Assembly (NCBI GenBank): GCA_964585735.1
Contig: CAZPFB010000012.1
Coordinates: forward strand, 1,937 to 65,936
Length of the DNA stretch: 64,000 bases
From: an uncultured Leptospiraceae bacterium
GTDB lineage: Bacteria > Spirochaetota > Leptospiria > Leptospirales > Leptonemataceae
Direction of reading: 5' to 3'
This document shows, piece by piece, positions 23,653 through 64,000 of the stretch (position 1 is its first letter; each line of letters starts with the position of its first letter). Under the pieces are notes generated by a model. That model made no database searches and was not told where the DNA came from. It worked only from the letters and a program-made list of their open reading frames with translations. The translations under genes and the position numbers were made by a program.

Positions 23653-23662
23653 TATTTGTCCC

Positions 23663-29242: not shown

Positions 29243-29279
29243 TCTGACCCCTTGGTTCCAAGAACTGGCTGGTTCGCGC

Positions 29280-30194: not shown

Positions 30195-30253
30195 CGGAAC
30201 GACGTTGCGCCCGAGCAATTGCGGCCCGACTATCGGGCACACTGGCCAGCGCC

Positions 30254-31033: not shown

Positions 31034-31171
31034 TCGCAGACCCTCCACAATCCCATGGTTGATCGCCATGGCCCTCCAGGCGGAGGCCGACCGAATGCTT
31101 CCGCGCCCTGGCTCTTCCGTGGCCAGCCCGCCCCCAAGAATGACCCACCCCTGTCCCGTGCCGGAATATGC

Positions 31172-31657: not shown

Positions 31658-31739
31658 TGTCTGGTCGGTTCGCCGGGCGGCCCCTGCCGGTCCAGGCATT
31701 TTTCCCGGTGAGAATACCGGGTGGCCTTCCGCCTTGACG

Positions 31740-33056: not shown

Positions 33057-33063
33057 GGCGATC

Positions 33064-33903: not shown

Positions 33904-33942
33904 ACCGGGCCAACCCCGCTCTTCCGCCCACAGGCTTCCCTC

Positions 33943-42993: not shown

Positions 42994-43018
42994 CGCCTCC
43001 AGTGCGAATCGAAAACGC

Positions 43019-44377: not shown

Positions 44378-44473
44378 GGGACGCGCCCGTCGGCCAAGAC
44401 TCCTGTACCTCTGCCGCTCCGGGGTACAAGAAAAAAATTGACCGCCCGAAGAAAAGCTCACCCAATACTTGCA

Positions 44474-45337
44474 ATGACGATTGGTGAATTGCTCGGCCTG
44501 CTGGTGCGGGGCCAACTCCTGCCCGCAGAAGAGGCCGGGCGGCTCTCGGGCCTTCCGGCCACGGAGGTCTACGCGGCCCTTCAGGCCCGGGGCCGGTCCT
44601 TCCACCGGGAGCTGGAGCGCTTCCTCGCTGATCGGATTCCCTCACGCCCCCAGCAAACCACAGAGTGGACCTACGAGATTGCGCTCGGGCGCGTGGCCGG
44701 GTCGCGGGGGGCGGACGCCTTTCTCTTCGAGCCCATCGACAAAGACATCACCGCTTTCTTCCTTTGGGAAACGAGGGGCACCGAACTGGACGCGGTCCTC
44801 GGGTCGCTTGTGATCCTGGGCGCCGTGAAGCTCCTGCACGAACCGATCCCCCCTGGCCCGTCCGGCGTTGCGAGGCAGGTGAATCGCGTGTTGGCCGAGC
44901 TCGAACCGGGGGGCGCGTACACCTCGCTTTGCGTGGCGCTCCTCGATGTGCACCGGGGCGTGGTCGAATACTGCTGCGCCGGTACACCTGCGCCGCTCCT
45001 GTACCGCGCGACCGAGCGCGATGTCAGCGAATGCACGGAGGGTTGGGGGATCCCGGCCGGAATTGAACGGGACAGTCAGTTCTCGACCGGCTACCTGCTC
45101 CTGCGTCGGGGGGACATACTCCTTCTATCCACGGACGGAATGTGGAAAGCGCAGGGCGCGCGGGGGAGTGTGATAACTTCCGCTCAGTGGAAACGCAGGC
45201 TGCGTCAGTTCGCGGACAGGCAGGCCGACGGAATCCGCAAAGGCCTCCAGAGAGAATTGCGCCTGCACCTCATGCATCGGCGGGCCAGGGATGGCGCCAC
45301 GGTCGCTGTCATCAAACGTCGGGGGCACGTCCGTTGA
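44474..45337 (+). CDS. PP2C/SpoIIE-family serine phosphatase
   Basis: C-terminal domain with GADAFLFEPI, LLLSTDGMW and DGATVAVIKR acidic metal-ligand blocks. Start placed at ATG 44474. Confidence 0.7.
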   Translation: MTIGELLGLLVRGQLLPAEEAGRLSGLPATEVYAALQARGRSFHRELERFLADRIPSRPQQTTEWTYEIALGRVAGSRGADAFLFEPIDKDITAFFLWETRGTELDAVLGSLVILGAVKLLHEPIPPGPSGVARQVNRVLAELEPGGAYTSLCVALLDVHRGVVEYCCAGTPAPLLYRATERDVSECTEGWGIPAGIERDSQFSTGYLLLRRGDILLLSTDGMWKAQGARGSVITSAQWKRRLRQFADRQADGIRKGLQRELRLHLMHRRARDGATVAVIKRRGHVR

Positions 45338-49443: not shown

Positions 49444-50436
49444 TCACATACCGATCTTGTAACCGAAGCGATAGGTCGTTCCGGCCAAGACAATCGGCTT
49501 GTTGGCAACGCGTGCCAGGTGGGTCTGAGCTCCAATACCCTGGACGGAGGCTGCTTCGGTGTCCCCCGCAATCAGCGTGTCCATTTCGAAGAAGACTTTG
49601 TTCGGTCCCGAACCGCCTTCCACGCCGATCAGCACGTTGAAACCCATGCCCTCGGTTACGAACTTGGCGCCTTCCCCGAGAATCGGGCCCGAGGCGACGT
49701 TCCCGGACGAGTTGATGCTGGTTACGGCGCCGATCGGAACGCCGATGATGGAGGGGATATCCCCGATGCTGGTCACAGTCACGCTCCAACCGCCGCGGTG
49801 GTAGTTGATCCCGGCGCCGCCGTAGACGGCAGCCGTCTCACCGACTTTGGCTTTGATGCCGAAGTAGGCAGGCACGACTAAGGCACGGTAGTCCCACTTG
49901 TCCTTGTACCACTCGATTCCCGCAAACGTGGAAGACGATTGGCCGCCCATGATACGGGTGTTGTAGCTGATGTCCACGCGCAGGAAGGACCAGTTACTCA
50001 AAGACAGCTCGTAGAAGACGTTCAGTACGAGGCCCGTCATGGAGCCACCGATTTCGGATTCCAAGAGCGGGACGTTGGCGTCGTAGTCCTTCAACGTGCG
50101 GTTGGGGATGATCCCATCCTGCTCCGTACCGGCTCGTGCGAGGAGGCAGGCCTGCCGCGAGGTGGTTTCGTCCCCGCTGTTGGCCACACCGTCCGCGCCG
50201 GTGTTGAGCGGACTGAAACAGCCTTTGCCCGCGCCGGTAACCCCGCCTGCGGTGTTGTACTCCGGCTTCTCCTTTGTGGACTTGAGGCCGTCATTGGTGA
50301 TGGTCCCACCCAATTGGCCCAGATTGAACATGAGGCCAGCGCCGAAGCCCAAATAGCTCTGCGCGCTCACGCTCGTTGCGAAAAGTGTAAGGCCTGACAC
50401 AATGGCTGCCAGTGTTCCTTGCTTGATGGCTTTCAT
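49444..50436 (-). CDS. predicted outer-membrane beta-barrel protein
   Basis: GGAGGA SD. Signal peptide MKAIKQGTLAAIVSGLTLFATSVSAQS. Gly-rich with alternating beta-strand-like pattern. Followed by its own terminator. Confidence 0.6.
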   Translation of the reverse strand: MKAIKQGTLAAIVSGLTLFATSVSAQSYLGFGAGLMFNLGQLGGTITNDGLKSTKEKPEYNTAGGVTGAGKGCFSPLNTGADGVANSGDETTSRQACLLARAGTEQDGIIPNRTLKDYDANVPLLESEIGGSMTGLVLNVFYELSLSNWSFLRVDISYNTRIMGGQSSSTFAGIEWYKDKWDYRALVVPAYFGIKAKVGETAAVYGGAGINYHRGGWSVTVTSIGDIPSIIGVPIGAVTSINSSGNVASGPILGEGAKFVTEGMGFNVLIGVEGGSGPNKVFFEMDTLIAGDTEAASVQGIGAQTHLARVANKPIVLAGTTYRFGYKIGM

Positions 50437-50669
50437 AAAAACCCTATCCTCCATCACATGAACTGTGTTGTTGTACTTGATTGAATTTGAAAAACAGGCT
50501 TCCAACCCACGGTTGGCCGCAGACTACGAGCGCTGATCCCACTTTTCGTACCGGGCACCGTCAATTAAAAAAGTGCGAACAAAACTGAAAATTAGTCGTC
50601 CCGGGATCCTCGGTCGACTGGAGCATTGCCCCATCATCGACCCTGTCGAAAAAAAACCTTGACCCTGTT

Positions 50670-51071
50670 TCAGGCGTCGAGGGCTGCGTTGGCCAGGGCG
50701 TCGGCCTCGGTATTCTGCTCCCTTGGGATGTGTTCGATTGCCCAAGATGGGAAGGAAGTCAGGAGGGAGCGAACTTCGGTGTGCAACGGCTTGAGTCCGG
50801 CATTCTTGACCTTGTAGCGACCGAGAACCTGGAACACGGCCAGTTGCGAGTCCATCCGGACCCGGACCCTTTGACATCCCTGACCCTTGGCCGCGCGCAG
50901 ACCCGCGATCAGGGCCCGGTATTCCGCCACGTTGTTCGTGGCCCTGCCGATCCTCTCGGAGATCTCCGCCAGCTTTTCTTTCCCCTTCCCGTACAGGACC
51001 GCGCCGATGGAAGCCGGGCCCGGATTCCCGCGGCTCGCTCCGTCGCAGTAAAGGATGGCCTCGCTCTCCAT
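50670..51071 (-). CDS. rnhA: ribonuclease HI family protein
   Basis: Catalytic DEDD pattern: YCDGASRGNPGPAS, NNVAEYRAL, MDSQL and EQNTEADALAN. Confidence 0.85.
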   Translation of the reverse strand: MESEAILYCDGASRGNPGPASIGAVLYGKGKEKLAEISERIGRATNNVAEYRALIAGLRAAKGQGCQRVRVRMDSQLAVFQVLGRYKVKNAGLKPLHTEVRSLLTSFPSWAIEHIPREQNTEADALANAALDA

Positions 51072-53544: not shown

Positions 53545-54261
53545 TCAGAACAGTGGCCCTTCGGGTCCGGGATCGAGGAAACGCCGCAGAGCTTCCGGGC
53601 GTCGGAGTCGCAGCGTCAGGTAAGCGCCTCCCATGACAAACAGCAGGCCCGCGGGCAGGAGCAGGGCAAGAAAACCGAGCGCCGAGAAACCGAGGACACC
53701 GGCCACTCCACCTGTGATGAATCCGGTGAGAATGCTGCCGTGGAGGAGCAACCGGTCGCCGCGGACCACCGCACCTCTCAGAATCGCACCGAGCTTCATG
53801 CCCAAATCCGTGACAATGCCCGTCATATGAGTCGTGCGCACGACCAATTCGTTCACTTTGCTCATCATGCCGTTCTGGAGACCCATGGCGAGCGCGGCCA
53901 CCAGTTCCCCGTAGAGCAGAACACCGCGCACGAAGAACAGGGTCGCAGCGACGAGCAGCGTGGCCTCCACCAACATGAGGATTCCGTAGCGGCGGCCGGC
54001 TTTGAATCGCTCGTTACGGGTCACCATCCCCGAAAAAACCGTCCCGGCAAAAAAGGAAGCAAGCGGCAGTCCGGCCTGAGAAAGAAGCGGCCCATCCAAC
54101 CGTACGGCGCCCAGCGCTACGCGCGTGAGGTTTCCGGTTGCGTGGGTGAGCAGCGCCTGTGCCAACCCGAGCAGGCCGACAGCGTTGACCAATCCTGCCA
54201 CGAGCGCAAGAAATGCTCCCCCGAAAATCAGCCAGAAAGGCGCTCTCGATCGGGTAGGCAT
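53545..54261 (-). CDS. DUF1275 (YoaK-like) membrane protein
   Basis: Polytopic membrane protein with the THATGNLT and THMTGIVTDLG motifs I associate with DUF1275. Confidence 0.55.
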   Translation of the reverse strand: MPTRSRAPFWLIFGGAFLALVAGLVNAVGLLGLAQALLTHATGNLTRVALGAVRLDGPLLSQAGLPLASFFAGTVFSGMVTRNERFKAGRRYGILMLVEATLLVAATLFFVRGVLLYGELVAALAMGLQNGMMSKVNELVVRTTHMTGIVTDLGMKLGAILRGAVVRGDRLLLHGSILTGFITGGVAGVLGFSALGFLALLLPAGLLFVMGGAYLTLRLRRPEALRRFLDPGPEGPLF

Positions 54262-54321: not shown

Positions 54322-55104
54322 TCACTTGGGCGACCACCGGCTCTCGTCGAGGTGGCCGAGCAGGCGGAGCAGGCCGTCGAGGATGGTCAGGGGGTGCGGC
54401 GGGCAACCCGGTATGTAGAGGTCCACGGGCAGCGTTCCGCCGACACCGCCGAGTTGCTCGGGACTGGCAAAGTACGGGCCACCTGATATGGCGCAGGCGC
54501 CCACGGCGATAACGATCTTGGGAGCGGGAACCGCCGCGTACGTTTTCTGGACCGCGAGGAGCATGTTTCGGGTGATGCAGCCTGTTACCAGGAGGCCGTC
54601 CGCGTGACGCGGTGAGGCGACGAACTGGATGCCGAAACGACCCAGATCCCAGCCGATGGTTCCAAGCACGTTCACGTCGGCTTCGCACGCATTGCAGCCT
54701 CCCGCGCTCACCTGCCGCAGACGCAGCGAGCGCCCGAAGAGACGCCGCAATCGGTCATCCAACTGTGCGGCGAGCTCCATCTCCCCTGCGCCTTCGACGA
54801 CCAGGTGTTCGCGTTTGCGTGTTGCGAGTCGGTACTCCGTGTCAAAACCGATGGCTCCCTGCGGGCAGGCGTCCATGCACTCCGTACAGAACAGGCACCG
54901 GCCGAGGTCGACGGAGAGTTTCGATTCGGCGCTGATGGCCCCCGTGGGACAGGCGCGGGCACACTCCCGGCAACCGTCCGGGCATTTGGTTTCGTCCAGA
55001 CGTGGTCTCCCGCGGAAGTGGTGCGGCATCTCCGGCCCGGGAGCATCGGGGAATGCCATCGTTCGTTTCCCCTGTCGGATGCGTGCGCGCAGTGCTTTGA
55101 TCAT
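54322..55104 (-). CDS. fused 2x[4Fe-4S] ferredoxin (HyfH/HycF-like) and NuoB/HycG-like small subunit
   Basis: N-terminal half has CPDGCRECARACP and CLFCTECMDACP. C-terminal half has GGCNACE, GACAISGG and IPGCPPHP, which are the four Cys of the proximal cluster. Confidence 0.85.
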   Translation of the reverse strand: MIKALRARIRQGKRTMAFPDAPGPEMPHHFRGRPRLDETKCPDGCRECARACPTGAISAESKLSVDLGRCLFCTECMDACPQGAIGFDTEYRLATRKREHLVVEGAGEMELAAQLDDRLRRLFGRSLRLRQVSAGGCNACEADVNVLGTIGWDLGRFGIQFVASPRHADGLLVTGCITRNMLLAVQKTYAAVPAPKIVIAVGACAISGGPYFASPEQLGGVGGTLPVDLYIPGCPPHPLTILDGLLRLLGHLDESRWSPK

Positions 55105-55165: not shown

Positions 55166-56689
55166 TCATAGATCGAATCCGCAGTAGGAGAGGTTGAAAC
55201 TCTTGTTGCACAGGGGGAAATCCGAAATCTCTTCGTTGCGCATTGCCAGGGCCAGGCCCATCCAGTTGTGAAAGGATGGATCGACGATCTTGTAACGGGC
55301 GAATCGCCCCTTTTCATCCGTGAGGGCGACATGGCAGACTTCTCCCCGCCAGCCTTCCACGAGCGAAACGACCATAGACTGTGGCCGCAGGGCGGGGCGA
55401 CCTCCACCGACCTGTGGGGCGCCGGCGGGCAGCGAGCCCAGCCGTTCCCGAACGAACTGGATGGAACGCCTGATTTCCAGCCAGCGGACGAAGGCCCGTG
55501 AATGAACGTCGCCGTTCGGAGCAGTCGTGACGGGAATGCTCGCAAAGCGATACATGCCGAACGGATGGTCCATGCGCACGTCCCGCTCGAGGCCGGAAGC
55601 ACGCGCCGCGGGTCCGACGATCCCCGCCTCCATGCAGAGCTCGGCCGAAAGGACGCCCTTGTTTTCGAAGCGGGCCAGGATGGAAGGGGTGTTCCACAAG
55701 AGGGAAACGGCCTCGGTCACGTCCCGCTCCGCGGCGTCCAGGGAGGAAAGCACAGCCCGTACCTCCGACGCCGTCGGAAGGAAGCGTACGCCACCCGGCA
55801 CGATCAGGTCCCGACCGAAACGGCTGCCGCACAAAGCGGCCGTCATGTTGAGGAAGTCGCCGCGCAGGCGCCCGCAGAAAGAGAGTGTCGGAAGGTAGCC
55901 CACATCTCCGGCAAGCGCGCCCAGGTCGCCGGTGTGATTGGCCAACCGCTCCAGTTCCAGGGCAACCGCGCGGATGATCTGAGCGGCCGCCGATGGCTCC
56001 AGTCCGCTCTGGGCCTCTATGTTCTGGCAGTACGCAAGCGTGTGCGCCACGGTGGAATCGCCTGCGGCAGTTTCGATTTGCTTGCGCGTGATCGGGTGCG
56101 GACCTTCGAGGAGAGACGCTTCCACGCCGCGATACTGATAACCCAGAGATATTTCGAGGTGGAATACCTTTTCGCCGTGGCATTGAAAGCGAAAGTGTCC
56201 CGGCTCGATGACTCCTGCATGCACGGGCCCGACCGCCACTTCGTGAACCTCCTTGCCTTCCACCCGGTAGAAGTCCATTCGCCCGATGGCGCCCGGGTCC
56301 GAAACTTGGGCCGTTCCAAAGGCCGTAGCGAACCGCACGGGCTTGAGCCAAGGATGCCCGTGTGGTCGGACGCCGAACTGTTCGAACACCTCGCGCTCGA
56401 AGAGATGCAATTGCGGACACTCTGGGGTTAGGGCGGGAAAGGAGTCCCCCTGGATGCGGGTGCGCAGAGGATGGAGTCTGCCCTCGTAGTCGTCGGCAAA
56501 GATCAGGTGGAGGTCCAATCCGCCGGCCTCCGCGGAAGGCAGCGCGAACATGGCGGAAACACGTTTGCCTTCGCCGATGAGGCGCAGGGTCTGAATGCGC
56601 AGGGCTTCGTACGGCATATCCGGAACCAGATCGATCGGAAACGCACGACCGTTGAAAACCGTGGGAATTTCTGGAACGCCCTGATTCAT
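55166..56689 (-). CDS. HyfG/HycE/NuoCD-like large subunit lacking [NiFe] cysteine motifs
   Basis: NuoC-like N-domain plus VGPVHAGVIEPGHFRF and LGYQYRGVE blocks of group-4 large subunits. There is no CxxC anywhere in the protein (see finding). Confidence 0.85.
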   Translation of the reverse strand: MNQGVPEIPTVFNGRAFPIDLVPDMPYEALRIQTLRLIGEGKRVSAMFALPSAEAGGLDLHLIFADDYEGRLHPLRTRIQGDSFPALTPECPQLHLFEREVFEQFGVRPHGHPWLKPVRFATAFGTAQVSDPGAIGRMDFYRVEGKEVHEVAVGPVHAGVIEPGHFRFQCHGEKVFHLEISLGYQYRGVEASLLEGPHPITRKQIETAAGDSTVAHTLAYCQNIEAQSGLEPSAAAQIIRAVALELERLANHTGDLGALAGDVGYLPTLSFCGRLRGDFLNMTAALCGSRFGRDLIVPGGVRFLPTASEVRAVLSSLDAAERDVTEAVSLLWNTPSILARFENKGVLSAELCMEAGIVGPAARASGLERDVRMDHPFGMYRFASIPVTTAPNGDVHSRAFVRWLEIRRSIQFVRERLGSLPAGAPQVGGGRPALRPQSMVVSLVEGWRGEVCHVALTDEKGRFARYKIVDPSFHNWMGLALAMRNEEISDFPLCNKSFNLSYCGFDL

Positions 56690-58128
56690 AAAGGCTTCTC
56701 GAAATACGCGCGCGCCTGCTCCAGGACATCCCGCAGCGGTCCCGGAATGTACAGACCGAGCAAAAGCACGATCACAAGCAAAAGGCCGGCCGGTATCACG
56801 GTGAAGGGCGTGTCCTGGAAGCCTGTCGTTTGCATCGGTCGCTCGGGGGTCCCCTGGACGACGCGCAGTACGGTCTGACCCATCCCGATAAACACGACAA
56901 ACAGCAGCCCCAGGATGGAAGCGGAGAGCGCGTACTGCCCGTCGCCCACGGCGCCGCGCAGTATCGTGAACTCGCTGATGAAGACGCCGAATGGTGGCGA
57001 ACCCGTGATGGCGATGAACCCTCCGAGGAAGAGGGCCGCAGACCAGGGGACCCGGCGCAGGGCTCCGGTCACCTGGTCGGTGTGTTTGCTGCCGAAAGCG
57101 CGGTGGATGTTAGCTGCCGAAAGGAACAGCACGCCTTTGGTGAGCGCGTTGGTGATGACGTGCAGAAATGTCCCGAAGAGGGCGATTCCGCCGATGGCCA
57201 CTCCCAATACCAGCACGCCCATGTGCTCGACGCTCGAGTAGGCAAGCATCCGTTTGAAGTCCTTCTGCTGGGCCATGAAAACAGCCGCAAAAAGCATGGA
57301 CACCAAACCGGAAACGATCAGGACCTCGCGCACAAAATCAGCCTGACCGGCCGCGCGCAGGATCATCGCGAAGCGCAGAAGCGCCACGAAAGCGCAACCC
57401 GTCACGCCGCCCGCAAGCATGGCGCCCACGATCCCGGGGGCTTCGCCGTACGCATCCGGCTTCCAGGTGTGCATGGGTGCAAGCCCCATCTTGGTGCCGT
57501 AGCCCACGAACACCATGGCAAACGCCGCCAGAAGCCACGGCCGCGAAAACCCTGACGCGTGCAGCAGCATATCTTCGAACAGGAGTGAAGTCACGTGCCC
57601 GCCCTGAAGGGAGGCATACGCCATGAAGAATGTGCCCAGAAGCGCCAGGGCGATTCCGACCGAACAGACCAGCAGGTACTTCCATGTGGCCTCGATGGAC
57701 CGGGCGGTCTGGTTGAAGTAGAGCAGGGGGCCGGATGCGAGCGATGTGGCTTCCATGGCCACCCACATGAGTCCCAATTGATGTGAGCAGAGGACGAGCA
57801 GGGCGCTTGCATCCATTAAGAGAAAGCACGCGACGAAGACTCGATTGGGGCGACCGGCGCGCAGAAGCAGGTAGCCCGGCGCGTAAAGCGTGCAGCAGAA
57901 GAACAGACCGCACAGCGCAAGCAGCACCACGCGGGCCACGGGGTCGAGCACGAACCATCCAATGGACGGCGCCGGTTCTGTGAACACCAACCACAGCGAG
58001 AGCGCCATTTCGACCGTCCCCACCACGGGCAGCACAAATGGTCGAACACGGTTCGAGGGGATCAGGAGCGCAACAAGGGCCCCCGCCACGGGTATTGTCG
58101 GCAGAAGGATCAGCAGGTAGTCGTTCAT
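56686..58128 (-). CDS. hyfF: antiporter-like subunit (HyfF/NuoN-M type)
   Basis: About 14 TM helices with conserved WVAMEATSL, GYGTKMGLAPMHTWKPDAY and AYSSVEHMG blocks. ATGA overlaps at both ends. Confidence 0.85.
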   Translation of the reverse strand: MNDYLLILLPTIPVAGALVALLIPSNRVRPFVLPVVGTVEMALSLWLVFTEPAPSIGWFVLDPVARVVLLALCGLFFCCTLYAPGYLLLRAGRPNRVFVACFLLMDASALLVLCSHQLGLMWVAMEATSLASGPLLYFNQTARSIEATWKYLLVCSVGIALALLGTFFMAYASLQGGHVTSLLFEDMLLHASGFSRPWLLAAFAMVFVGYGTKMGLAPMHTWKPDAYGEAPGIVGAMLAGGVTGCAFVALLRFAMILRAAGQADFVREVLIVSGLVSMLFAAVFMAQQKDFKRMLAYSSVEHMGVLVLGVAIGGIALFGTFLHVITNALTKGVLFLSAANIHRAFGSKHTDQVTGALRRVPWSAALFLGGFIAITGSPPFGVFISEFTILRGAVGDGQYALSASILGLLFVVFIGMGQTVLRVVQGTPERPMQTTGFQDTPFTVIPAGLLLVIVLLLGLYIPGPLRDVLEQARAYFEKPL

Positions 58129-58769
58129 TCTTTCAGCGTTGTCAGGTGCTTCGTGTCCAGGGAAGAGAATGCACGTCGAATGTGATTGAGGATGATGCCC
58201 ATTGCGAAGACGGCCACGAAGAGGTCCAGCAGGCCGCCCATCTCCACCAGGAGCGGTAGGGCATCGATGAGCAGCAGGCCGAACAATAGAATCCCGTTCT
58301 CCAGGACCAGGTAGCCCACAACCTGCGTGATGGCCTTCAGCCTGGTCGTCAGGATCAGAAACCCGGTCAGGATCGTAGAGAAAGAGGCCGGCATGATGAA
58401 GCGGCGCGCCGGTTCTCCGGAGTCGCCGAGCGAGGCGGCAAAGAGCACGGCAAGTCCGGTACCGACGCCCCCCAGCAGCAGCGAAGGCACGAATCCTACA
58501 AACGGTTCCACTTCGCGTCGAATCTGGACTTCTTTGATGGCCCGAAAGAGCAGAATGGGAATCCCGAAGCCCTTGATGAGGATCGCAAGCGTGCCGACCA
58601 CGAGGTGGCCCAGGTGTATTTCGCTCGCTCCGATGATGGACAAAGTGCCCAAAAGCGCACCCTGGGCTGCCGCAGCGCGGATGATTGTACCGATCCGGCT
58701 GACGCCAAGCATCAGGAAGTTCAAAAGAACCATGACAACCAGCAGCGTATCGATGAGCCCGTCCACCAT
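58125..58769 (-). CDS. hyfE: HyfE-like small membrane subunit
   Basis: 214-aa polytopic protein at the HyfE position. The C-terminal GYLVLENGILLFGLLL block resembles NuoK. Start at ATG 58769, behind AAGGAA. Confidence 0.7.
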   Translation of the reverse strand: MVDGLIDTLLVVMVLLNFLMLGVSRIGTIIRAAAAQGALLGTLSIIGASEIHLGHLVVGTLAILIKGFGIPILLFRAIKEVQIRREVEPFVGFVPSLLLGGVGTGLAVLFAASLGDSGEPARRFIMPASFSTILTGFLILTTRLKAITQVVGYLVLENGILLFGLLLIDALPLLVEMGGLLDLFVAVFAMGIILNHIRRAFSSLDTKHLTTLKE

Positions 58770-58776: not shown

Positions 58777-59673
58777 TTACCGGAGCAGCAGCACGAACCC
58801 AAACAATGTCAGGAGCGTAGCCGAGATGATCAGCTTGGGCACGTTGTTGAGTCGCAGTCGGGCGATGCTGGATTCCACAACACCCACCGCCACACCAACA
58901 CAGGCAACACCCCCGAGGAGCACGCCGAATCGCGCGTACCCCCACTCGGGTGGAAAAGGTACGATCACCTGAACGACCAGCGCCGACATCAAGAACAGCT
59001 TGATCGAAGAAGCATACTCGATGAGCCCGAGCAGCGGTCCGCTGTGATCGAGGACCATGACTTCGTGCACCATGGTCAGCTCCAGGTGCGTGTTCGGATC
59101 GTCGAAGGGGATCCTGGAGTTTTCGGCCAGCAGGATGATGAACCAGCTCACGGAAAGCAGAAGGAGCGCCCCCACTGTGCCCTCCGGTGCGGCCGTGCGC
59201 ACGAGCATCTCGGAGAGGCTGAGGGAGCCTGAGATCTTGGCCAGGAGTACTGCCCCGGCAAAGAATGCGGGTTCCACGAGCGCTGCAAACGTCACCTCCC
59301 GCGAAGCCCCCATCCCTTCGAAGGGCGAACCCGTGTCCATGGCCGCTGCGGCCACGAAGAATCTGCCTGCTGCCAGCAGGTAGGCGGCCAGAATGAAGTC
59401 TCCTGTAAAGCGGACGGGCGCGGGGGCGGACAACGGTATCAACAATCCGGCCGCACAAACGGTCGTGAGAGACACCGCCGGACCGGCGTGAAAAACCCAG
59501 GTGGTTGCCGAGCTGATCACCGTGTCCTTCCGGAAGAGCCGCAACAGGTCGTAGTAGAGCTGAAGCAGCGGAGGACCCTGTCTGCCGGCAAATACGGCCT
59601 TGGTCCTGTTGATGATTCCGGTCAGCAGCGGCGGCAGCGCAAGCAGAAGCGCAACGTGCAGGGCGACGTCCAT
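58777..59673 (-). CDS. hyfC: NuoH/HycD/HyfC-like membrane subunit
   Basis: LLTGIINRTKAVFAGRQGPPLLQLYYDLLRLFRK and PFDDPNTHLELTMVHE motifs. ATG 59673 overlaps the upstream stop (TGATG). The listed ORF 58777..60834 is an alternate-frame extension. Confidence 0.85.
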   Translation of the reverse strand: MDVALHVALLLALPPLLTGIINRTKAVFAGRQGPPLLQLYYDLLRLFRKDTVISSATTWVFHAGPAVSLTTVCAAGLLIPLSAPAPVRFTGDFILAAYLLAAGRFFVAAAAMDTGSPFEGMGASREVTFAALVEPAFFAGAVLLAKISGSLSLSEMLVRTAAPEGTVGALLLLSVSWFIILLAENSRIPFDDPNTHLELTMVHEVMVLDHSGPLLGLIEYASSIKLFLMSALVVQVIVPFPPEWGYARFGVLLGGVACVGVAVGVVESSIARLRLNNVPKLIISATLLTLFGFVLLLR

Positions 59674-61649
59674 CAACTCCACCTCCACAGCAGCAGAAGC
59701 AGCATGGCCAGGAAGACGTAGAGAATGTAGAGCTGCACCTGCCCCGCCTGCAGAATGCGCAGGCGCGCAATCCATCGCGAGCCAAACCGAAAGGCAGGCA
59801 ACACTGCTGCGTCCAAAACGATGTCCAGAGCGTGCGACTCGAATGTGCTTTGCTTCGCAAGAAGGCCGCGTGGTTCCGTGACCGCGTCGCGCACCAGAAG
59901 CAGCGGACGGAAGTAGCCCACCAGGCCCGCACCAAATGACGAGGCCGTGTACTGCATGGAGGGACAGGTTTCGACGAAACCGCAGTCCCAGGTGGGCGCC
60001 CGCATCGCTGACCTGCTGCGCAAAGCAAGGTGCAGGACGCCGCCGCCGACGATCACCGCAATCGGGATGCCCACCCAGCTCAGCCACTCCAGTTGAGCAA
60101 GTCGTGCGATTCCCGGGTGGCCCGACGGCCACCACGGGAAGACGGACCCCGCACTTTCGAGAATGGGTGCGCAGAGGATGGGGACCAATCCGATGCAGAC
60201 ACAGAGCGCCCCGAGAAAGAGCATGGAGCCGGTCATGGTGCCCGGGGCTTCGGTCGCCCCCTCGGCGGCAGCCGACCGTGCTGTCCCGAGGAAGACGGTT
60301 CCAAACACCTTCACGAAGCAGGCGAGGGCCAGCGCCCCCATGAAAGCCAGGCCCGCCACCGACAGAAGGCCCAGCACCCCGGCCGGCGGGTGCGGCAGTT
60401 GAGCCATGCGCACCAGCCCCAGGTAGATGAACATTTCGCTCACGAAACCGTTGAGCAGCGGCAGGCCGCAGATTGCGTAGGCGCCGCACAGAAAGGACAA
60501 CGAGGTCAGCGGCATTCGGCGCGCCAGGCCGCCCTGCGTGTCCAGGTCGCGGCTGCCTGTGGCGCGCACGACCGCCCCCGAGGTCAGAAACAGAAGGGAT
60601 TTGAAGAGTCCATGGTTCCAGACGTGGAGGAGCGCGCCTCCCATGCCCAGGACGATGAGAGTCGGTTGTTCGAGGGCGGCCCCGGCAACACCCACGCCAA
60701 TACCGGTGAAGATGATCCCGATGTTTTCGATGCTGTGATAGGCCAACAGGCGCTTGAGATCGTGCTGGCCGATTGCATAGACGACGCCGATGATCCCGGA
60801 TGCGATCCCGAGGATGATGAGCACGGCCGCCCACTCAATTGTCGGTCGGGGGCAGACCGAGAGAACACGCAGAATGCCGTAGACTCCCATCTTGATGAGA
60901 ACGCCGGAGAGCACCGCGGAGACATGCGCGGGCGCGCTGGCGTGGGCGGAGGGCAGCCACATGTGCAGCGGAAAGATTCCGGCCTTGAGTCCGAAGGCCA
61001 CCACGGCGAGCGCGAAGAGGACCGCGGTGTGGCCCGCGTTCTCGTCCAGCATCGAAAAGGCAAAACCGCCGGTTGTGTTGGCGTACAGGGCAAAGAGAGC
61101 AAACAAAGACAGCGTGCAGGCGTGAGCTGCAACGAAATACAGCCAACCGGCGCGGCGCACCTGGGCGTCCTCGTCCTCGGTCGTGACCAGGAAGAAGGCG
61201 GAAAGCGTCATGATCTCCCAACCGATCAGGAACACCAGGGCGTGGCGCGCCAGCACGACGAGCCCCATCCCGGCCACCAGCCAACCATAAACAAACTCAA
61301 GTTTTCCCGCGCCGTGTGGCTGTTCGTCGGCCGGCCGGTAACGCAGTCCGAACAGCGCGCTCGTGGTTGGAACGACGAAGATCGGCACGAGGAAGAACGC
61401 CGAAAGTGCATCCGCCCGAAGATAGTCGGACAGCAAAGGCCCAAAACCGGCCCGACCGGCTCCGGCCGTTGTATGCGTTTCGACCAGCACGCAGACGGCC
61501 CCTGTGGCGCCCAGGACGCCGGCGCACGTCAGGAGCACGAGCGCCGCCCGCTGCCCGGCGCGGCCCGCGTGGGGGACCAGTACCCCGGGCGCCCCAGAAA
61601 GAGCGCTCAGGACCAGAGCAACGAGGAAGAGCAATCCCACCGCCGTCAT
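59673..61649 (-). CDS. hyfB: antiporter-like subunit, HyfB/NuoL type, copy 2
   Basis: About 16 TM helices with GWEIMTLSAFFLV, KAGIFPLHMWLPSAHASAP and LAYHSIENIG blocks. ATG 61649 overlaps the upstream stop (ATGA). Confidence 0.85.
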   Translation of the reverse strand: MTAVGLLFLVALVLSALSGAPGVLVPHAGRAGQRAALVLLTCAGVLGATGAVCVLVETHTTAGAGRAGFGPLLSDYLRADALSAFFLVPIFVVPTTSALFGLRYRPADEQPHGAGKLEFVYGWLVAGMGLVVLARHALVFLIGWEIMTLSAFFLVTTEDEDAQVRRAGWLYFVAAHACTLSLFALFALYANTTGGFAFSMLDENAGHTAVLFALAVVAFGLKAGIFPLHMWLPSAHASAPAHVSAVLSGVLIKMGVYGILRVLSVCPRPTIEWAAVLIILGIASGIIGVVYAIGQHDLKRLLAYHSIENIGIIFTGIGVGVAGAALEQPTLIVLGMGGALLHVWNHGLFKSLLFLTSGAVVRATGSRDLDTQGGLARRMPLTSLSFLCGAYAICGLPLLNGFVSEMFIYLGLVRMAQLPHPPAGVLGLLSVAGLAFMGALALACFVKVFGTVFLGTARSAAAEGATEAPGTMTGSMLFLGALCVCIGLVPILCAPILESAGSVFPWWPSGHPGIARLAQLEWLSWVGIPIAVIVGGGVLHLALRSRSAMRAPTWDCGFVETCPSMQYTASSFGAGLVGYFRPLLLVRDAVTEPRGLLAKQSTFESHALDIVLDAAVLPAFRFGSRWIARLRILQAGQVQLYILYVFLAMLLLLLWRWS

Positions 61650-63649
61650 CGAAGACCCTCGATGCGTGCCATGGCCCACACGGTCGTCAAGAGGAGCGCA
61701 AGCAGGATGTACAGCAGGTAGAACTGTACGACTCCGTGGTGGAGAACGCGGAGTCGGTAGAACCGGTTGGAGAGATTCTGCCAGAAGGGGACCAGAACCC
61801 GATCGAGGAGCGGTTCGCGGGCTTCAAATTGGACGGCCGCGGGTTGAGGAAAAACATCGGTCGTACTCGTGCCGGTGCGTTCCCGGCGGAGCGGGAAACG
61901 GCGCAGCAGTTGTGCGCTCGGGCCGACAAAAGACGAAGCCGTGTACTGCATTCGGGCCGGGGACGAATCGACGTAGCCGCAATCCCAGGTGCCCGCCCTG
62001 GGCGCGCGGGCGGACAGGCGGCGGACCGCCACGATGGACGCAAGCGCCAGAGGTCCAACTACGACGAGGAAGCGGGAAATTTCTCCAAATGAAACCAACG
62101 TGCCCAGCGAGGGGAGAGCGGCCGCAGAACCAGAGGTTCCGGCCAGAGCTCGGACGGCGGCGTCCAGCGCCGGCACAAGGAGGACCGGAACGAAACCGAC
62201 CAGCAAGATCAGGCCCGTGTTGAAGACGAGGGCGCCGTGAAGAAACGGAAAGCGGCCCGCGTGATGGTCCCCGGTCGAGCGCGGCCGACCCAGGAACATC
62301 ACGGCGTAGGCGCGCAGGAAGGAGATAAGGGCGAGTCCACCCGCGAGACACAGGCTCACGATCGCGAGGGTGCCGACCACGGCCGCCCATGGGGACTTTC
62401 CGAGGCCGAGTTCCAGGGCGCCCAGGTACAATGGGACTTCTCCCACAAAACCGTTGGCACCGGGCAGACCCACCAGCGCCCAGACCCCGGCCAGAAAACA
62501 CGCCCCAACGACGGGAAGCGTGCGGACCAGGCCGCCCATCCGATCCATGCTGCGTTCCTTGGTGGCGTGCATGACCGCGCCCGCGCCAAAAAAGAGCAGT
62601 GATTTGAAAACGGAATGGTTCAGCAGGTGGAAGAGGGCCCCGCCACCGCCGAGGGCCGTCAGCGTCGGGTTTTCCACGGCGCGCCCGAAGAGGAAGATCC
62701 CGGCGCCCACGGTAATGAGTCCCGCGTTCTCGATCGTACTGTAAGCAAGCAACCGCTTGATGTCGCTCTGCCAAAGGGACGCCACCACGCCGAAAAGTGC
62801 CGTGACCGAACCCAAACCGAGGAGAAGTCCGGCCCACCACAGTGGCGGGTGGGAAACGAGTGAGAATGTGCGCAGCAGTCCGTAGAAGCCCATCTTGACG
62901 AGTACCCCGGACATCAGAGCCGAAACATGTCCGGGCGCGGATGCATGCGCGCCCGGCAGCCAGAAGTGGAGCGGAAAGAGTCCGGCCTTCATTCCGAAAC
63001 CCACGAGGAGCAAACATAGGAGCAGGACTCCGTCGCTCCCGGAAAGGCCGTCCAGGTTTGTCCAGTTGAACGAGCCGCTGCGTTCGCCCATCCAGAGGAA
63101 TTGGAGGATCAGCGCCGCAGTGCCCGCGTGTGTCGAGACCAGATACACCCACGACGCCGAACGCACTTCCGGCTTTTCGTGTTCCGTGCCCACGAGGAAA
63201 AACGCCGCGACGGCCATCACCTCCCAGAACACCAGGAAGAGCACGCCGTTTCGAGCAACGAGGAGCCCGGCCATCGCGGCCGTCACCAGTCCGTAGAAGA
63301 AGCGCAGCGCACGCCCATTGCCGCGGCGCTCGGATTGCGGCCAGTAGTCCAACCCGTAGAGTGCGCCCACCGCAGAAACAATGTACACCGGGATCAGGAA
63401 GAGCGCCGACAGCGCGTCCAGACCAACGAGGAATCTGGCGTCCGGCACGAACCATACGTCCAATGCAAGGGTGCTCTGGCCGTGCGCGAAGGTGACGGCA
63501 ACTCCAATGAGACCGACCGCGGAGGCGAGCACCGAAAGTGCCGCCGAGAGCCTCTGTCCGTTGTTCGAATCCCGCGAAAAGGCAAGGCCCGGCAGACCGC
63601 TTGCGCCGGCGCAGCCGCACGAAAGTAATACCAGTTCGATCCCGGTCAC
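61646..63649 (-). CDS. hyfB: antiporter-like subunit, HyfB/NuoL type, copy 1
   Basis: FWEVMAVAAFFLV, KAGLFPLHFWLPGAHASAP and LAYSTIENAG. GTG 63649 overlaps the upstream stop (GTGA). Confidence 0.85.
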   Translation of the reverse strand: MTGIELVLLSCGCAGASGLPGLAFSRDSNNGQRLSAALSVLASAVGLIGVAVTFAHGQSTLALDVWFVPDARFLVGLDALSALFLIPVYIVSAVGALYGLDYWPQSERRGNGRALRFFYGLVTAAMAGLLVARNGVLFLVFWEVMAVAAFFLVGTEHEKPEVRSASWVYLVSTHAGTAALILQFLWMGERSGSFNWTNLDGLSGSDGVLLLCLLLVGFGMKAGLFPLHFWLPGAHASAPGHVSALMSGVLVKMGFYGLLRTFSLVSHPPLWWAGLLLGLGSVTALFGVVASLWQSDIKRLLAYSTIENAGLITVGAGIFLFGRAVENPTLTALGGGGALFHLLNHSVFKSLLFFGAGAVMHATKERSMDRMGGLVRTLPVVGACFLAGVWALVGLPGANGFVGEVPLYLGALELGLGKSPWAAVVGTLAIVSLCLAGGLALISFLRAYAVMFLGRPRSTGDHHAGRFPFLHGALVFNTGLILLVGFVPVLLVPALDAAVRALAGTSGSAAALPSLGTLVSFGEISRFLVVVGPLALASIVAVRRLSARAPRAGTWDCGYVDSSPARMQYTASSFVGPSAQLLRRFPLRRERTGTSTTDVFPQPAAVQFEAREPLLDRVLVPFWQNLSNRFYRLRVLHHGVVQFYLLYILLALLLTTVWAMARIEGLR

Positions 63650-64000
63650 GTGGAGGCTCCTCGGCGCAGCGTTCCGCCCGATTCGGACAGGCCGACCAGG
63701 GCCTGGAGCATACGGCTCTGCGGCGCGCGTTCGGAGATCATCTTCCGGAAGGCTTCATCCTGAAGATCGCGCGCGAGGCCGGACAGGAGATACAGATGTT
63801 CGTGGTTGGTCCTTGTCACCAGGAGAAAGAAGGTGTGCACCGGCCGTCCATCGGCGGCCTGGAAGTCCACGGGGCGTTCCGGATGATAGATGAACAGACG
63901 CGCCGGCATTTCCGGCACAAGGAACGGACCGCGAACGTGCGGAATGGCAATTCCGTCTGATGCCGCGCCGCCTGTTTGTTGTTCTCGGGACCGCAGGAGC
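63646..64000 (-). CDS. PTS EIIA type-2 (EIIA-Ntr/Fru-like) domain protein, 5' end outside window
   Basis: The frame is open to the window edge. It reads ...DGIAIPHVRGPFLVPEMPARLFIYHPERPVDF...FFLLV..., with the GIAIPH phospho-histidine motif of PTS_EIIA_2 domains. Confidence 0.7.
   Translation of the reverse strand, partial: LLRSREQQTGGAASDGIAIPHVRGPFLVPEMPARLFIYHPERPVDFQAADGRPVHTFFLLVTRTNHEHLYLLSGLARDLQDEAFRKMISERAPQSRMLQALVGLSESGGTLRRGAST

What the first reader, a model, noticed from the sequence alone, without database searches (positions are those of the whole stretch)
55166..56689. Hydrogenase-like large subunit with no [NiFe] ligand motifs (Ehr-type catalytic subunit)
The 507-aa product is clearly of the HycE/HyfG/NuoCD lineage, with a NuoC-like N-domain and the VGPVHAGVIEPGHFRF and LGYQYRGVE blocks. 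Genuine [NiFe] large subunits carry RxCGxCxxxH at one position; this protein reads ETAAGDSTVAH there. They carry the C-terminal DPCxxCxxH/R at another; this protein simply ends ...DFPLCNKSFNLSYCGFDL-stop. No CxxC exists anywhere in the protein. The two C-terminal Cys are spaced C-x8-C, and in my by-eye alignment one lies one residue off a canonical ligand position. There is no C-terminal extension for endopeptidase processing, and I recognise no hyp or hycI-type maturation gene in the window. The partner small subunit keeps all four Cys of the proximal 4Fe-4S cluster, so the complex looks functional rather than decayed. Complexes of this kind have been described bioinformatically as Ehr (energy-converting hydrogenase related), intermediates between group 4 hydrogenases and complex I. 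As far as I know their substrate and physiological role remain experimentally unknown.
Basis: partly seen in the sequence, partly recalled or inferred. Interest (0 to 1): 0.72.

Follow-up and report, generated by a model that had tools for sequence, protein, structure and literature searches.

The report
Nickel-free hydrogenase-like (Ehr) membrane complex

Summary
The ORF at 55166-56689 lies on the minus strand and encodes a 507-aa HycE/NuoCD-type protein. All four [NiFe] cysteine positions are replaced (A209, S212, S501, G504), and the protein ends ...NLSYCGFDL-stop.

This is not decay. More than 240 relatives at 57-65% identity carry the same replacement motifs. The family occurs in at least 591 species genomes from more than ten phyla, including cultured Geobacteraceae and Geothrix.

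The gene sits in a translationally coupled seven-gene operon: two HyfB-like subunits, NuoH-like, HyfE-like, HyfF-like, the large subunit, and a fused NuoI+NuoB small subunit. The small subunit keeps all 12 Cys for three [4Fe-4S] clusters. This matches the Ehr cluster named in Geobacter sulfurreducens (GSU0739-0745). Papers from 2023 and 2025 still call its function unknown.

It is most likely a ferredoxin-linked, ion-translocating Fe-S oxidoreductase that does not handle H2. Its acceptor is unproven and may be a quinone.

Two corrections apply. The missing C-terminal extension is not diagnostic. The absence of hyp genes is shown only for these 64 kb.

New here are a fixed replacement signature with a near-universal Asp211, and a conserved upstream HTH-PTS-EIIA regulator.

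Verdict: a new member of a known kind, of modest interest.

The parts
63646..64000 (-). 3' part of a regulator gene that runs off the window edge. The visible 117 codons are a PTS EIIA_2 domain with the GIAIPH phospho-His motif. Full-length orthologs are about 235 aa, HTH_17 + PTS_EIIA_2.
   Evidence: Pfam PTS_EIIA_2 3e-9. The frame is open to the window end. The L001 ortholog gives HTH_17 3e-16 + PTS_EIIA_2 2e-28. The gene is present in 38 of 56 loci with at least 8 kb upstream, and is co-directional in 34. Its stop overlaps the ehrA-1 start (GTGA).
61646..63649 (-). EhrA-1: HyfB/NuoL-like antiporter-type membrane subunit, 667 aa
   Evidence: Pfam Proton_antipo_M 9e-54. NCBIfam hydrogenase 4 subunit B 5e-148, below its cut-off. 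Motif residues E143, K221, K298 and E404 are present.
59673..61649 (-). EhrA-2: second HyfB/HyfD-like antiporter-type subunit. The ORF extends to a GTG at 61679, but the likely start is the ATG at 61649, which overlaps the ehrA-1 stop as ATGA.
   Evidence: Pfam Proton_antipo_M 2e-50. The TM5 Glu, TM7 Lys, TM8 Lys and TM12 Glu motifs are present.
58777..59673 (-). EhrB: NuoH/HyfC/HycD-like membrane subunit, about 298 aa. Its ATG overlaps the ehrA-2 stop.
   Evidence: Pfam NADHdh 2e-35. The loop motif AENSRIPFDDPNTHLEL is present. The start context is shown.
58125..58769 (-). EhrC: HyfE-like membrane subunit. The ORF extends to a TTG at 58802; the likely start is the ATG at 58769.
   Evidence: NCBIfam hydrogenase 4 membrane subunit 2e-17. 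Syntenic in 70 of 80 loci.
56686..58128 (-). EhrD: HyfF/MbhH/NuoM-like antiporter-type subunit, 480 aa
   Evidence: Pfam Proton_antipo_M 2e-44. NCBIfam hydrogenase 4 subunit F 1.5e-85. The best PDB match is MbhH 6cfw_H at 3e-24, with the Glu/Lys motifs aligned. E126, K213, K292, K331 and E386 are present.
55166..56689 (-). EhrL: ligand-less large subunit, 507 aa (the finding)
56042..56074 (-). Remnant of the L1 motif, residues 206-216 (ETAAGDSTVAH). The former Cys positions are A209 and S212, with the family-specific D211 between them.
   Evidence: G210 and D211 are invariant, and H216 is at least 90% conserved.
55169..55225 (-). C-terminal signature, residues 489-507 (SDFPLCNKSFNLSYCGFDL). 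The former Cys positions are S501 and G504, and C503 is shifted by one residue.
   Evidence: All 240 listed relatives end in the same block. The stop codon directly follows L507.
56171..56233 (-). Block 153-173, VGPVHAGVIEPGHFRFQCHGE (the beta1-beta2 loop region). It holds E162, the counterpart of the hydrogenase proton-relay Glu, and the family-specific C170/H171.
   Evidence: Invariant or at least 90% conserved except V156 and V160. Aligned to MbhL E21 and to the Nqo4 loop that carries H38. The AF2 model has low confidence at 156-163.
54322..55104 (-). EhrS: fused small subunit, 260 aa. The N-terminal part is a NuoI/HycF-like 2x[4Fe-4S] domain (C41, 45, 48, 52 and C70, 73, 76, 80). The C-terminal part is a NuoB/HycG/MbhJ-like domain carrying the proximal-cluster Cys (C137, C140, C204, C234).
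   Evidence: Pfam Oxidored_q6 plus Fer4 families. PDB matches are MbhJ 4e-31, HycG 2e-28 and HycF 6e-14. The Cys are conserved in 48-53 of 53 orthologs.
53545..54261 (-). DUF1275 membrane protein, 61 nt downstream on the same strand. It may be co-transcribed but is not part of the conserved system.
   Evidence: Pfam DUF1275 2e-31. It has no counterpart in any of the 80 related loci.

Best explanation
The locus encodes an Ehr complex (Ech-/energy-converting-hydrogenase-related). This is a membrane-bound relative of the Hyf-type group 4 [NiFe]-hydrogenase that has no [NiFe] site and therefore does not make or consume H2.

Proposed working model:
1. A low-potential soluble carrier, most likely ferredoxin, docks on the NuoI-like domain of EhrS.
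2. Electrons pass through its two [4Fe-4S] clusters to the proximal [4Fe-4S] cluster in the NuoB-like domain.
3. From there they reach a remodelled pocket at the EhrL/EhrS/EhrB interface. That pocket is lined by D211, S212, S501, Y502 and C503, and by the retained second-sphere residues E162, H216, R448 and D506.
4. The redox and protonation change at this pocket is transmitted through the NuoH-like EhrB and the HyfE-like EhrC to three antiporter-like subunits (EhrA-1, EhrA-2, EhrD), which move H+ or Na+. The same machine could run in reverse.

Shown here: the architecture, the loss of all four Ni/Fe ligands, conservation of the 12 Fe-S cysteines and of the charged residues of the pump modules, and purifying selection on the pocket.

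Inferred: ferredoxin as the partner (by analogy with Ech and MBH, and because the operon has no HycB/HyfA, FDH or NuoEFG gene), ion translocation, and the acceptor. My best guess for the acceptor is a membrane quinone, at about 0.35. Three pump modules imply a large free-energy span, which proton reduction could not supply.

The operon is probably controlled by the adjacent HTH-EIIA regulator, and so by a PTS-type phosphorelay.
For: Ligand loss.

Not decay: the C-terminal block and the GD[ST] motif are identical in 240 relatives at 57-65% identity. There are 104 invariant columns among 120 sequences. At least 591 species genomes carry the family. The genes overlap by 4 nt. All Ehr subunits were detected in G. 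sulfurreducens proteomes.

Fe-S chain.

Pump modules.

Hyf-like gene set without HyfA/HycB.

No conserved FDH, CODH or NuoEFG neighbour in 80 loci.

No hyp or hycI family among about 80 ORFs in the window.

Regulator.

Literature: Ehr lacks [NiFe] ligands and its expression is not induced by H2 in N. moscoviensis. M. tuberculosis has an EHR cluster but lacks the maturation genes.
Against: No member of the family has been characterised biochemically or structurally, and no Ehr chain is in the PDB copy.

The canonical quinone ligands of complex I are absent. Nqo4 Y87 aligns with G210 and H38 with I161/E162.

EhrS carries the hydrogenase-type CxxC motif, not the complex-I CC motif.

Some Ehr-bearing Riflemargulisbacteria are reported to lack quinone biosynthesis.

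The window covers 64 kb, so hyp genes elsewhere in the genome cannot be excluded.
Confidence: 0.8

Rival explanations
1. The same complex works physiologically in reverse. It uses the proton or sodium motive force to push electrons from a quinol (or another mid-potential donor) uphill onto ferredoxin. This would supply low-potential reductant for PFOR/OGOR-type reactions in organisms such as Geobacter and Nitrospira.
For: Three intact antiporter-like modules are present. The family occurs in Nitrospirae and Geobacteraceae. Ehr subunits are more abundant in formate-grown G. sulfurreducens. That these organisms need reduced ferredoxin for carbon assimilation is my own knowledge and was not tested here.
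Against: There is no direct evidence for the direction of electron flow. The quinone-site ligands are absent. No ferredoxin-consuming enzyme is conserved next to the operon.
Confidence: 0.25
2. The rebuilt pocket is a new catalytic site for a non-quinone substrate. One option is MBS-like chemistry, where the substrate is reduced at or near the proximal cluster. Another is a mononuclear metal held by D211, C503, E162 and His residues.
For: The replacement set is fixed and under strong selection: D211, S/T212, S501, Y502 and G504, with C503 at least 90% conserved. Additional family-specific Cys/His are present (C170, H171, C272, C452, H453). The second-sphere residues of the hydrogenase site are retained. 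P. furiosus MBS is a solved relative that also departs from H2 chemistry (match 6u8y_L; its chemistry is cited from my own knowledge).
Against: C503 becomes Ser or Ala in more distant ligand-less subfamilies. C272 and C452 co-occur only partly. No candidate substrate is suggested by gene context. No coordinates were available to test whether these residues cluster in space.
Confidence: 0.2
3. It is a redox-inert relic. The peripheral arm would be only a structural cap, and the complex would act as an Mrp-like cation/proton antiporter.
For: The membrane subunits are Mrp/antiporter-like. No redox partner is encoded nearby.
Against: All 12 Fe-S cysteines are conserved in 48-53 of 53 orthologs. 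The former active-site pocket and the beta1-beta2 loop are the most conserved parts of EhrL, which is not expected for a passive cap.
Confidence: 0.07
4. It is still a real hydrogenase, with a [NiFe] or other metal site held by unconventional ligands. The alternative version is that the reader's frame or register was wrong.
For: Overall it is most similar to HycE and MbhL. One Cys (C503) lies next to a ligand position. Public annotations call it 'hydrogenase'.
Against: The frame and register were verified against both solved and Cys-bearing relatives, and none of the four ligand positions holds Cys. The protein has no CxxC. No hyp or hycI gene is in the window. The literature reports no H2 response in N. 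moscoviensis and no maturation genes in M. tuberculosis.
Confidence: 0.03

Closest known systems
Ehr complex of Geobacter sulfurreducens (GSU0739-0745: EhrA-1, A-2, B, C, D, L, S), and 'Ehr' complexes as later generalised (energy-converting hydrogenase related)
   Same: The gene inventory has the same seven genes, including two NuoL/HyfB-like EhrA copies. The order is syntenic in Geobacteraceae loci L011, L015, L022 and L026. EhrL is 55-58% identical. Geobacteraceae and Nitrospirae proteins carry the identical ...AGD[ST]... and ...NLSYCGFDL-stop signatures. The large subunit lacks [NiFe] ligands.
   Different: The host is different: an uncultured Leptospirales-related spirochaete, judged from RNase R relatives and an OmpL1-type porin. 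A non-conserved DUF1275 gene follows ehrS. I could not align directly to the GSU proteins themselves, because they were not retrieved.
E. coli hydrogenase 4 (Hyf) and formate hydrogenlyase-1 (Hyc, PDB 7Z0S), group 4a [NiFe]-hydrogenases
   Same: HycE is the best solved relative of EhrL (8e-42; TM 0.85). The best NCBIfam hits of the membrane subunits are HyfB, HyfE and HyfF. The small subunit carries the hydrogenase-type CxxC. Y502, D506, R448 and E162 are shared.
   Different: All four Ni/Fe cysteines are absent. There is no HyfA/HycB, FdhF, HycI or hyp gene in the operon or window. HyfH and HyfI are fused into one protein. All NCBIfam scores fall below the curated cut-offs.
Pyrococcus furiosus membrane-bound hydrogenase MBH (PDB 6CFW) and Ech-type hydrogenases
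   Same: They are ferredoxin-dependent, with a NuoI-like subunit and a NuoB-like subunit feeding the large subunit. MbhJ is the best solved match of EhrS (4e-31) and MbhH the best match of EhrD (3e-24). Like many of these enzymes, EhrL has no C-terminal extension.
   Different: MBH has a [NiFe] site and makes H2. It has a single antiporter-like subunit plus Mrp-type small subunits, whereas this Ehr has three antiporter-like subunits.
Respiratory complex I / NDH-1 (NuoCD/Nqo4, NuoB, NuoI, NuoH, NuoL/M/N)
   Same: The L-shaped module set is homologous. The large subunit is a fusion of NuoC-like and NuoD-like parts, as in E. coli NuoCD (TM 0.83). It lacks [NiFe] and has three antiporter-like subunits.
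   Different: The quinone-ligand Tyr and His of Nqo4 are not conserved. The NuoB domain carries CxxC, not CC. There is no NuoEFG and no NuoA/J/K gene in the operon. EhrL is closer to HycE and MbhL than to NuoD by E-value.
Pyrococcus furiosus MBS/Mbx (PDB 6U8Y)
   Same: It is a group-4-derived complex that no longer performs H2 chemistry and has an altered large-subunit site. Some authors count it among Ehr-like complexes.
   Different: It is much more distant (6u8y_L, 6e-17). It is archaeal, has a different membrane-subunit set, and keeps some of the Cys ligands (the last point is my own knowledge).

Membership tests
Ehr (Ech-/energy-converting hydrogenase related) complex | The large subunit is homologous to the group 4 [NiFe] large subunit / NuoD | tested here: met
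   Pfam PF00346 + PF00329; HycE 8e-42, MbhL 3e-34, Nqo4 2e-26; Foldseek TM 0.85 to 7z0s_E
Ehr (Ech-/energy-converting hydrogenase related) complex | The cysteine ligands of the [NiFe] centre are absent | tested here: met
   A209, S212, S501 and G504 occupy the four positions, defined against HycE and against the Cys-bearing P0251/P0260/P0266. The protein has no CxxC.
Ehr (Ech-/energy-converting hydrogenase related) complex | The small subunit keeps the ligands of the proximal [4Fe-4S] cluster | tested here: met
   C137, C140, C204 and C234 align with the MbhJ/HycG ligands and are conserved in 48-49 of 53 orthologs.
Ehr (Ech-/energy-converting hydrogenase related) complex | The membrane module has NuoH-like, HyfE-like and NuoL/M/N-like subunits in the same operon (ehrA-1, A-2, B, C, D, L, S, as in GSU0739-0745) | tested here: met
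   The order is syntenic in 67-76 of 80 loci, including Geobacter, Geomonas and Pelobacter. The subunit names come from PMC7894505. No direct alignment to the GSU0739-0745 sequences was made.
Ehr (Ech-/energy-converting hydrogenase related) complex | The complex-I quinone-binding Tyr and His are also absent (a criterion recalled from Marreiros et al. 2013, which is not held in the library) | tested here: met
   In the HMMER alignment, Nqo4 Y87 pairs with G210 and Nqo4 H38 with I161/E162. The paper itself could not be read.
Functional group 4 [NiFe]-hydrogenase | L1 motif RxCGxCxxxH | tested here: not met
   The motif reads ETAAGDSTVAH. Only the terminal His is kept.
Functional group 4 [NiFe]-hydrogenase | L2 motif DPCxxCxx(H/R) at the C-terminus | tested here: not met
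   The motif reads NLSYCGFDL-stop.
Functional group 4 [NiFe]-hydrogenase | Hyp maturation machinery in the genome | tested here: inconclusive
   About 80 window ORFs gave no HypA-F or HycI Pfam family. The rest of the genome was not available.
Functional group 4 [NiFe]-hydrogenase | Ni content and H2 evolution or uptake activity | not testable with these tools
   Requires purification and assay.
Respiratory complex I (NADH:quinone oxidoreductase) | Quinone head-group ligands in NuoD (Tyr87 and His38 in T. thermophilus numbering) | tested here: not met
   alignment: G210 and I161/E162 occupy those positions.
Respiratory complex I (NuoB) | Tandem-Cys (CC) ligation of cluster N2 | tested here: not met
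   EhrS has GGCNAC, the hydrogenase-type CxxC. It aligns to 'LACCAV' in mitochondrial PSST.
Respiratory complex I | NADH-oxidising NuoEFG module and NuoA/J/K subunits | tested here: not met
   None were found in the operon, in the window, or as conserved neighbours in 80 loci.

The most novel reading that the evidence does not exclude
The former [NiFe] pocket has been rebuilt, not abandoned. Across ligand-less relatives down to about 35% identity, the four Cys are replaced by the same set (A/S/C209, S/T212, S501, G504). A new, near-universal Asp211 lies between them, and in this subfamily a Cys (C503) is shifted by one residue. The proton-relay Glu162, Arg448, His216 and Asp506 of true hydrogenases are kept.

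This pattern would fit a new proton-coupled catalytic or cofactor site. It could hold a mononuclear metal or bind a non-quinone substrate, which would give chemistry not yet described for the complex I / hydrogenase superfamily. Expression would be tied to a PTS-type phosphorelay through the conserved HTH-EIIA regulator.
Probability: 0.2. Interest if true: 0.8.

Novelty: new member of a known kind. Interest (0 to 1): 0.33.

Why it matters
Ehr complexes are one of the largest uncharacterised branches of the complex I / energy-converting hydrogenase superfamily.

- **Distribution.** This survey finds the window's subfamily in at least 591 species genomes from more than ten phyla.
- **Organisms affected.** The literature places Ehr in Geobacter, in about half of Nitrospirales genomes, and in Mycobacterium tuberculosis.
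- **Annotation.** Public records label these proteins 'hydrogenase', 'Ni,Fe-hydrogenase III large subunit' or 'NADH-quinone oxidoreductase subunit C'. These labels inflate predictions of H2 metabolism.
- **What an answer would give.** Knowing what Ehr reduces or oxidises would fill a gap in the energy budgets of many environmental and pathogenic bacteria. It would also bear on how the quinone site of complex I evolved from a [NiFe] site.

This particular locus adds a spirochaete host and a clean example, but it does not make the open question more testable than the cultured hosts already do.

Tried and rejected
1. Look-up of the exact protein in the contig index found nothing on record. The cluster look-up returned no names or accessions.

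2. The founding 2013 Ehr paper (PubMed id 23000657) is not held. Its criteria are therefore cited from memory and from later papers.

3. I searched for a conserved redox partner (FDH, CODH, NuoEFG, HycB) by tblastn of window proteins and by all-vs-all clustering of 4,397 ORFs from 80 loci. None was found. Beyond the operon itself, only the HTH-EIIA gene is conserved.

4. DUF1275 as an eighth subunit is rejected, with 0 of 80 loci.

5. The argument from the missing C-terminal extension is rejected, because the Cys-bearing relatives end at the same residue.

6. I tried to retrieve the 'Ech-hydrogenase-related' name through the Geomonas limicola ortholog. The sources only say 'hydrogenase (large subunit)' or 'NADH-quinone oxidoreductase subunit C'. 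The motif identity with Geobacteraceae was nevertheless confirmed.

7. I considered whether the extra Cys (170, 272, 452, 494, 503) form a new cluster. Presence and absence across the 50%-identity clusters co-vary only partly. The structure tool returns no coordinates, so this is unresolved.

8. The terminator and promoter scan around ehrS/DUF1275 was uninformative.

9. Literature searches for a functional assignment of Ehr, including Rv0082-87, found none.

10. A formal group 4 / complex I phylogeny and a HydDB classification were not run. Placement rests on E-value ranking and on the published trees.
Full report
**Observation**

The ORF at 55166..56689 is real but lies on the minus strand. 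It encodes 507 aa. Its ATG overlaps the stop of the upstream gene as ATGA, and it ends ...F-N-L-S-Y-C-G-F-D-L-TGA.

Pfam finds Complex1_49kDa (3e-36) and a NuoC-type Complex1_30kDa segment (1e-5, above its cut-off). All NCBIfam hits (NuoD, NuoCD, FpoD) fall far below their curated cut-offs. Among solved structures the order is HycE of E. coli formate hydrogenlyase (8e-42), MbhL (3e-34), Nqo4 (2e-26) and, much further off, MbsL (6e-17). An AlphaFold2 model built on 120 relatives has pLDDT 86 and pTM 0.90. It superposes on HycE at TM 0.85 and on fused NuoCD at 0.83.

**Ligand positions**

In the HMMER alignment, HycE's DRVCGICGFAH pairs with ETAAGDSTVAH, and HycE's DPCY(SC) pairs with NLSY(CG).

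An exhaustive search of 1.8 billion cluster representatives brought up true Cys-bearing relatives at 35-37% identity: P0251, P0260 and P0266, which read ER[IV]CG[VA]C...[NE]LCYSC[TC]D[RL]. Aligning them fixes the four ligand positions in the query as A209, S212, S501 and G504.

The protein has nine Cys and no CxxC.

The same Cys-bearing relatives also end right after the L2 motif.

**Not decay**

- The 120 best relatives of the query (57-66% identity) and the 120 best relatives of the Geomonas ortholog all end in ...SDFP[LIMV]xNKSFNLSYCGxDL-stop. They all read ...[AG]GD[ST]... at L1.
- Among 120 sequences, 104 columns are invariant. These include nearly the whole block V153-E173 (the beta1-beta2 loop), R448, C452-H453 and most of S489-D506.
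- The second-sphere residues of a hydrogenase site are kept: E162 (which aligns with MbhL E21), H216, R448 and D506.
- D211 is new and near-universal in ligand-less relatives down to about 35% identity.
- One search also shows two ligand-less subfamilies. One is 'E-C-x / E[TS]x[AC]GD[ST] / NLSYCG', which includes this window, Geobacteraceae and Nitrospirae. The other keeps Arg207 ('ERISGD[ST] / NLSY[SA]G') and scores next to the true [NiFe] forms.

**Locus anatomy**

GC3-guided gene calling and the family scans give a minus-strand operon whose genes overlap by 1-4 nt or are at most about 60 nt apart. In transcription order:

| Gene | Coordinates | Description |
|---|---|---|
| Regulator (partial) | 63646..>64000 | PTS EIIA_2 domain, runs off the window |
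| EhrA-1 | 61646..63649 | HyfB-like |
| EhrA-2 | 59673..61649 | second HyfB/HyfD-like |
| EhrB | 58777..59673 | NuoH/HycD-like |
| EhrC | 58125..58769 | HyfE-like |
| EhrD | 56686..58128 | HyfF/MbhH-like |
| EhrL | 55166..56689 | the finding |
| EhrS | 54322..55104 | fused small subunit |
| DUF1275 | 53545..54261 | non-conserved |

EhrS is a fusion. The N-terminal half is a NuoI/HycF-type ferredoxin domain with two complete Cys motifs. The C-terminal half is a NuoB/HycG/MbhJ-type domain with GGC137NAC140...GAC204...GC234PP. This is the hydrogenase-type CxxC motif, not the complex-I CC motif. All 12 Cys are conserved in 48-53 of 53 orthologs.

The three antiporter-like subunits keep the TM5 Glu, TM7 Lys, TM8 Lys and TM12 Glu motifs.

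**Distribution and context**

The best 80 come from Planctomycetota, Verrucomicrobiota, Geobacterales/Desulfuromonadales, Acidobacteriota, Spirochaetota, Lentisphaerota, Chlamydiota, Actinomycetota, Gemmatimonadota, Omnitrophota, Zixibacteria and Cloacimonadota. They include cultured Geomonas limicola and Geothrix paludis.

The gene order ehrA(1-2 copies)-B-C-D-L-S is conserved in 67-76 of the 80 loci.

De novo clustering of 4,397 flanking ORFs found no conserved FDH, CODH, NuoEFG or HycB-type partner. Beyond the operon itself, the only conserved neighbour is a gene of about 235 aa immediately upstream. Pfam resolves it as HTH_17 + PTS_EIIA_2. It is present in 38 of 56 loci with enough upstream sequence, and it is co-directional in 34. 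The window holds its C-terminal 117 codons, including the GIAIPH motif.

About 80 ORFs covering the window gave no HypA-F or HycI family.

The host appears to be an uncultured Leptospirales-related spirochaete. The named RNase R relatives, at 40-55% identity, are nearly all Leptospirales or Spirochaetia. An OmpL1-type porin is also present.

**Literature**

- 'Ehr' (Ech-hydrogenase-related) is the name used for G. sulfurreducens GSU0739-0745, with subunits EhrA-1, EhrC, EhrL, EhrS and others. All subunits were detected by proteomics and were more abundant with formate (PMC7894505; PMC8691401).
- Ehr complexes are described as related to group 4 hydrogenases but lacking the Ni/Fe ligands, with an FDH-Ehr link only hypothesised (PMC6349859).
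- In comammox Nitrospira they branch near group 4f and 'their function remains unknown' (PMC10284858).
- About half of Nitrospirales genomes encode one. It is not induced by H2, and its function is unknown as of July 2025 (PMC12342949).
- The M. tuberculosis Rv0081-87 cluster is regarded as an EHR that cannot be a hydrogenase, because the maturation genes are lacking (PMC6728331).
- No paper in the held library assigns a substrate, and no Ehr structure is in the PDB copy.

**Mechanism**

*Shown:* a Hyf-like architecture without a [NiFe] site, an intact three-cluster Fe-S wire, intact charged residues in three pump modules, and a pocket under strong selection.

*Inferred:*
- The NuoI-like domain is the entry point for a soluble low-potential carrier, as in Ech and MBH. 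The operon encodes no other electron-input module.
- The proximal cluster delivers electrons to the rebuilt pocket at the EhrL/EhrS/EhrB interface.
- The change at the pocket is coupled to ion translocation through EhrB, EhrC and the antiporter-like subunits.
- Three pump modules imply a large free-energy span. This favours a high-potential acceptor such as menaquinone, or the reverse, pmf-driven reduction of ferredoxin. It argues against proton reduction.

*Against a canonical quinone site:* Nqo4 Y87 and H38 have no counterpart, and some Ehr hosts reportedly lack quinones.

My estimates are about 0.35 for quinone as the acceptor and about 0.2 for a new type of site or substrate. The AF2 model is least confident exactly at 156-163 and 503-507. 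These are the two pocket-forming elements, and I infer that they become ordered only in the assembled complex.

**Comparison and membership**

All Ehr criteria that I could test are met (see the membership table). The defining motifs of functional [NiFe]-hydrogenases and of complex I were tested and are not met. The locus therefore belongs with Ehr. In architecture it works like a Hyf/MBH/complex-I-type redox-driven ion pump.

**Novelty and score**

The family has been recognised since the mid-2000s and is very widespread. A specialist would not be surprised by another member, and this uncultured host does not make the open question easier to test than Geobacter, Geothrix or Nitrospira would.

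The locus is a new member of a known kind, with interest of about 0.33. To my knowledge the literature I could read does not describe two things found here:
- the explicit family signature: GD[ST] with a near-universal Asp211, LSY[CSA]G-x-D-[LR]-stop, and retained second-sphere residues;
- the conserved HTH-EIIA regulator.

**What did not work**

- The exact-protein contig look-up found nothing and the cluster look-up gave no names or accessions.
- The 2013 Ehr paper is not held.
- The terminator scan was uninformative.
- The structure tool gives no coordinates, so I could not test whether the extra conserved Cys (170, 272, 452, 494, 503) cluster in space. Their co-occurrence across distant relatives is only partial.

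Noticed in passing
window 63646..64000 (-), runs off the window; orthologs e.g. L001:2258-2965: A gene for an HTH_17 + PTS EIIA_2 protein (GIAIPH phospho-His motif) abuts the first ehr gene. It is found in 38 of 56 related loci from many phyla that have enough upstream sequence. This suggests the Ehr operon is controlled by a PTS-type phosphorelay.
   Followed up: partly
window 45142..47061 (+); L034 about 6.3 kb upstream of EhrL: A PtsI (PTS enzyme I) gene lies 16.6 kb from the EIIA-type regulator. In locus L034 (Thermoanaerobaculia) a PtsI homolog sits right next to the regulator.
   Followed up: no
L037, L043, L045, L063, L067 (within 10 kb of EhrL; directly after ehrS in L063 and L067): A SulP-family anion transporter lies near the Ehr operon in 5 of 80 loci. 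Two of these (L037, L063) carry a C-terminal PII-like extension. The association may be chance.
   Followed up: no
window 53545..54261 (-): A DUF1275 membrane protein lies 61 nt downstream of ehrS on the same strand. It is absent from all 80 related loci, so it is probably a lineage-specific passenger.
   Followed up: yes
window about 500..35000: A large surface-polysaccharide / nonulosonic-acid cluster. It includes NeuB (2763-3773), UDP-GlcNAc 2-epimerase (3774-5009), two CMP-cytidylyltransferases, a HisF-like gene (7523-8368), a NodU/CmcH-type carbamoyltransferase (8868-10787, not HypF), a DegT aminotransferase, a GNAT, methyltransferases and at least 8 glycosyltransferases.
   Followed up: partly
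window 49444..50505 (-) and 37889..40207 (+): An OmpL1-type porin is present, and the named relatives of the RNase R are nearly all Leptospirales/Spirochaetia at 40-55% identity. The host therefore looks like a deep-branching, GC-rich (61%) uncultured spirochaete. The closest unnamed relatives reach 70-75%.
   Followed up: partly
window 50670..51071 (-): A small stand-alone RNase H / RVT_3 protein (133 aa) lies between the porin gene and a Zn-dependent alcohol dehydrogenase gene.
   Followed up: no
P0002-P0120, P0271-P0390 (relatives of EhrL): Public sources name members of this ligand-less family 'hydrogenase', 'hydrogenase large subunit', 'Ni,Fe-hydrogenase III large subunit' or 'NADH-quinone oxidoreductase subunit C'. 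All of these names are misleading for metabolic inference.
   Followed up: yes
P0122-P0270 (50%-identity cluster representatives): There are two ligand-less subfamilies. Type I ('E-C-x / E[TS]x[AC]GD[ST] / NLSYCG') includes this window. Type II ('ERISGD[ST] / NLSY[SA]G', about 525-540 aa) keeps Arg207 and scores next to the true [NiFe] forms. Some type I members retain the first L1 Cys (xCGD[ST]).
   Followed up: partly
window 42406..44605 (-): Flagellar export genes FliJ (42406-42993) and FliI (43019-44605) lie next to the PtsI gene.
   Followed up: no
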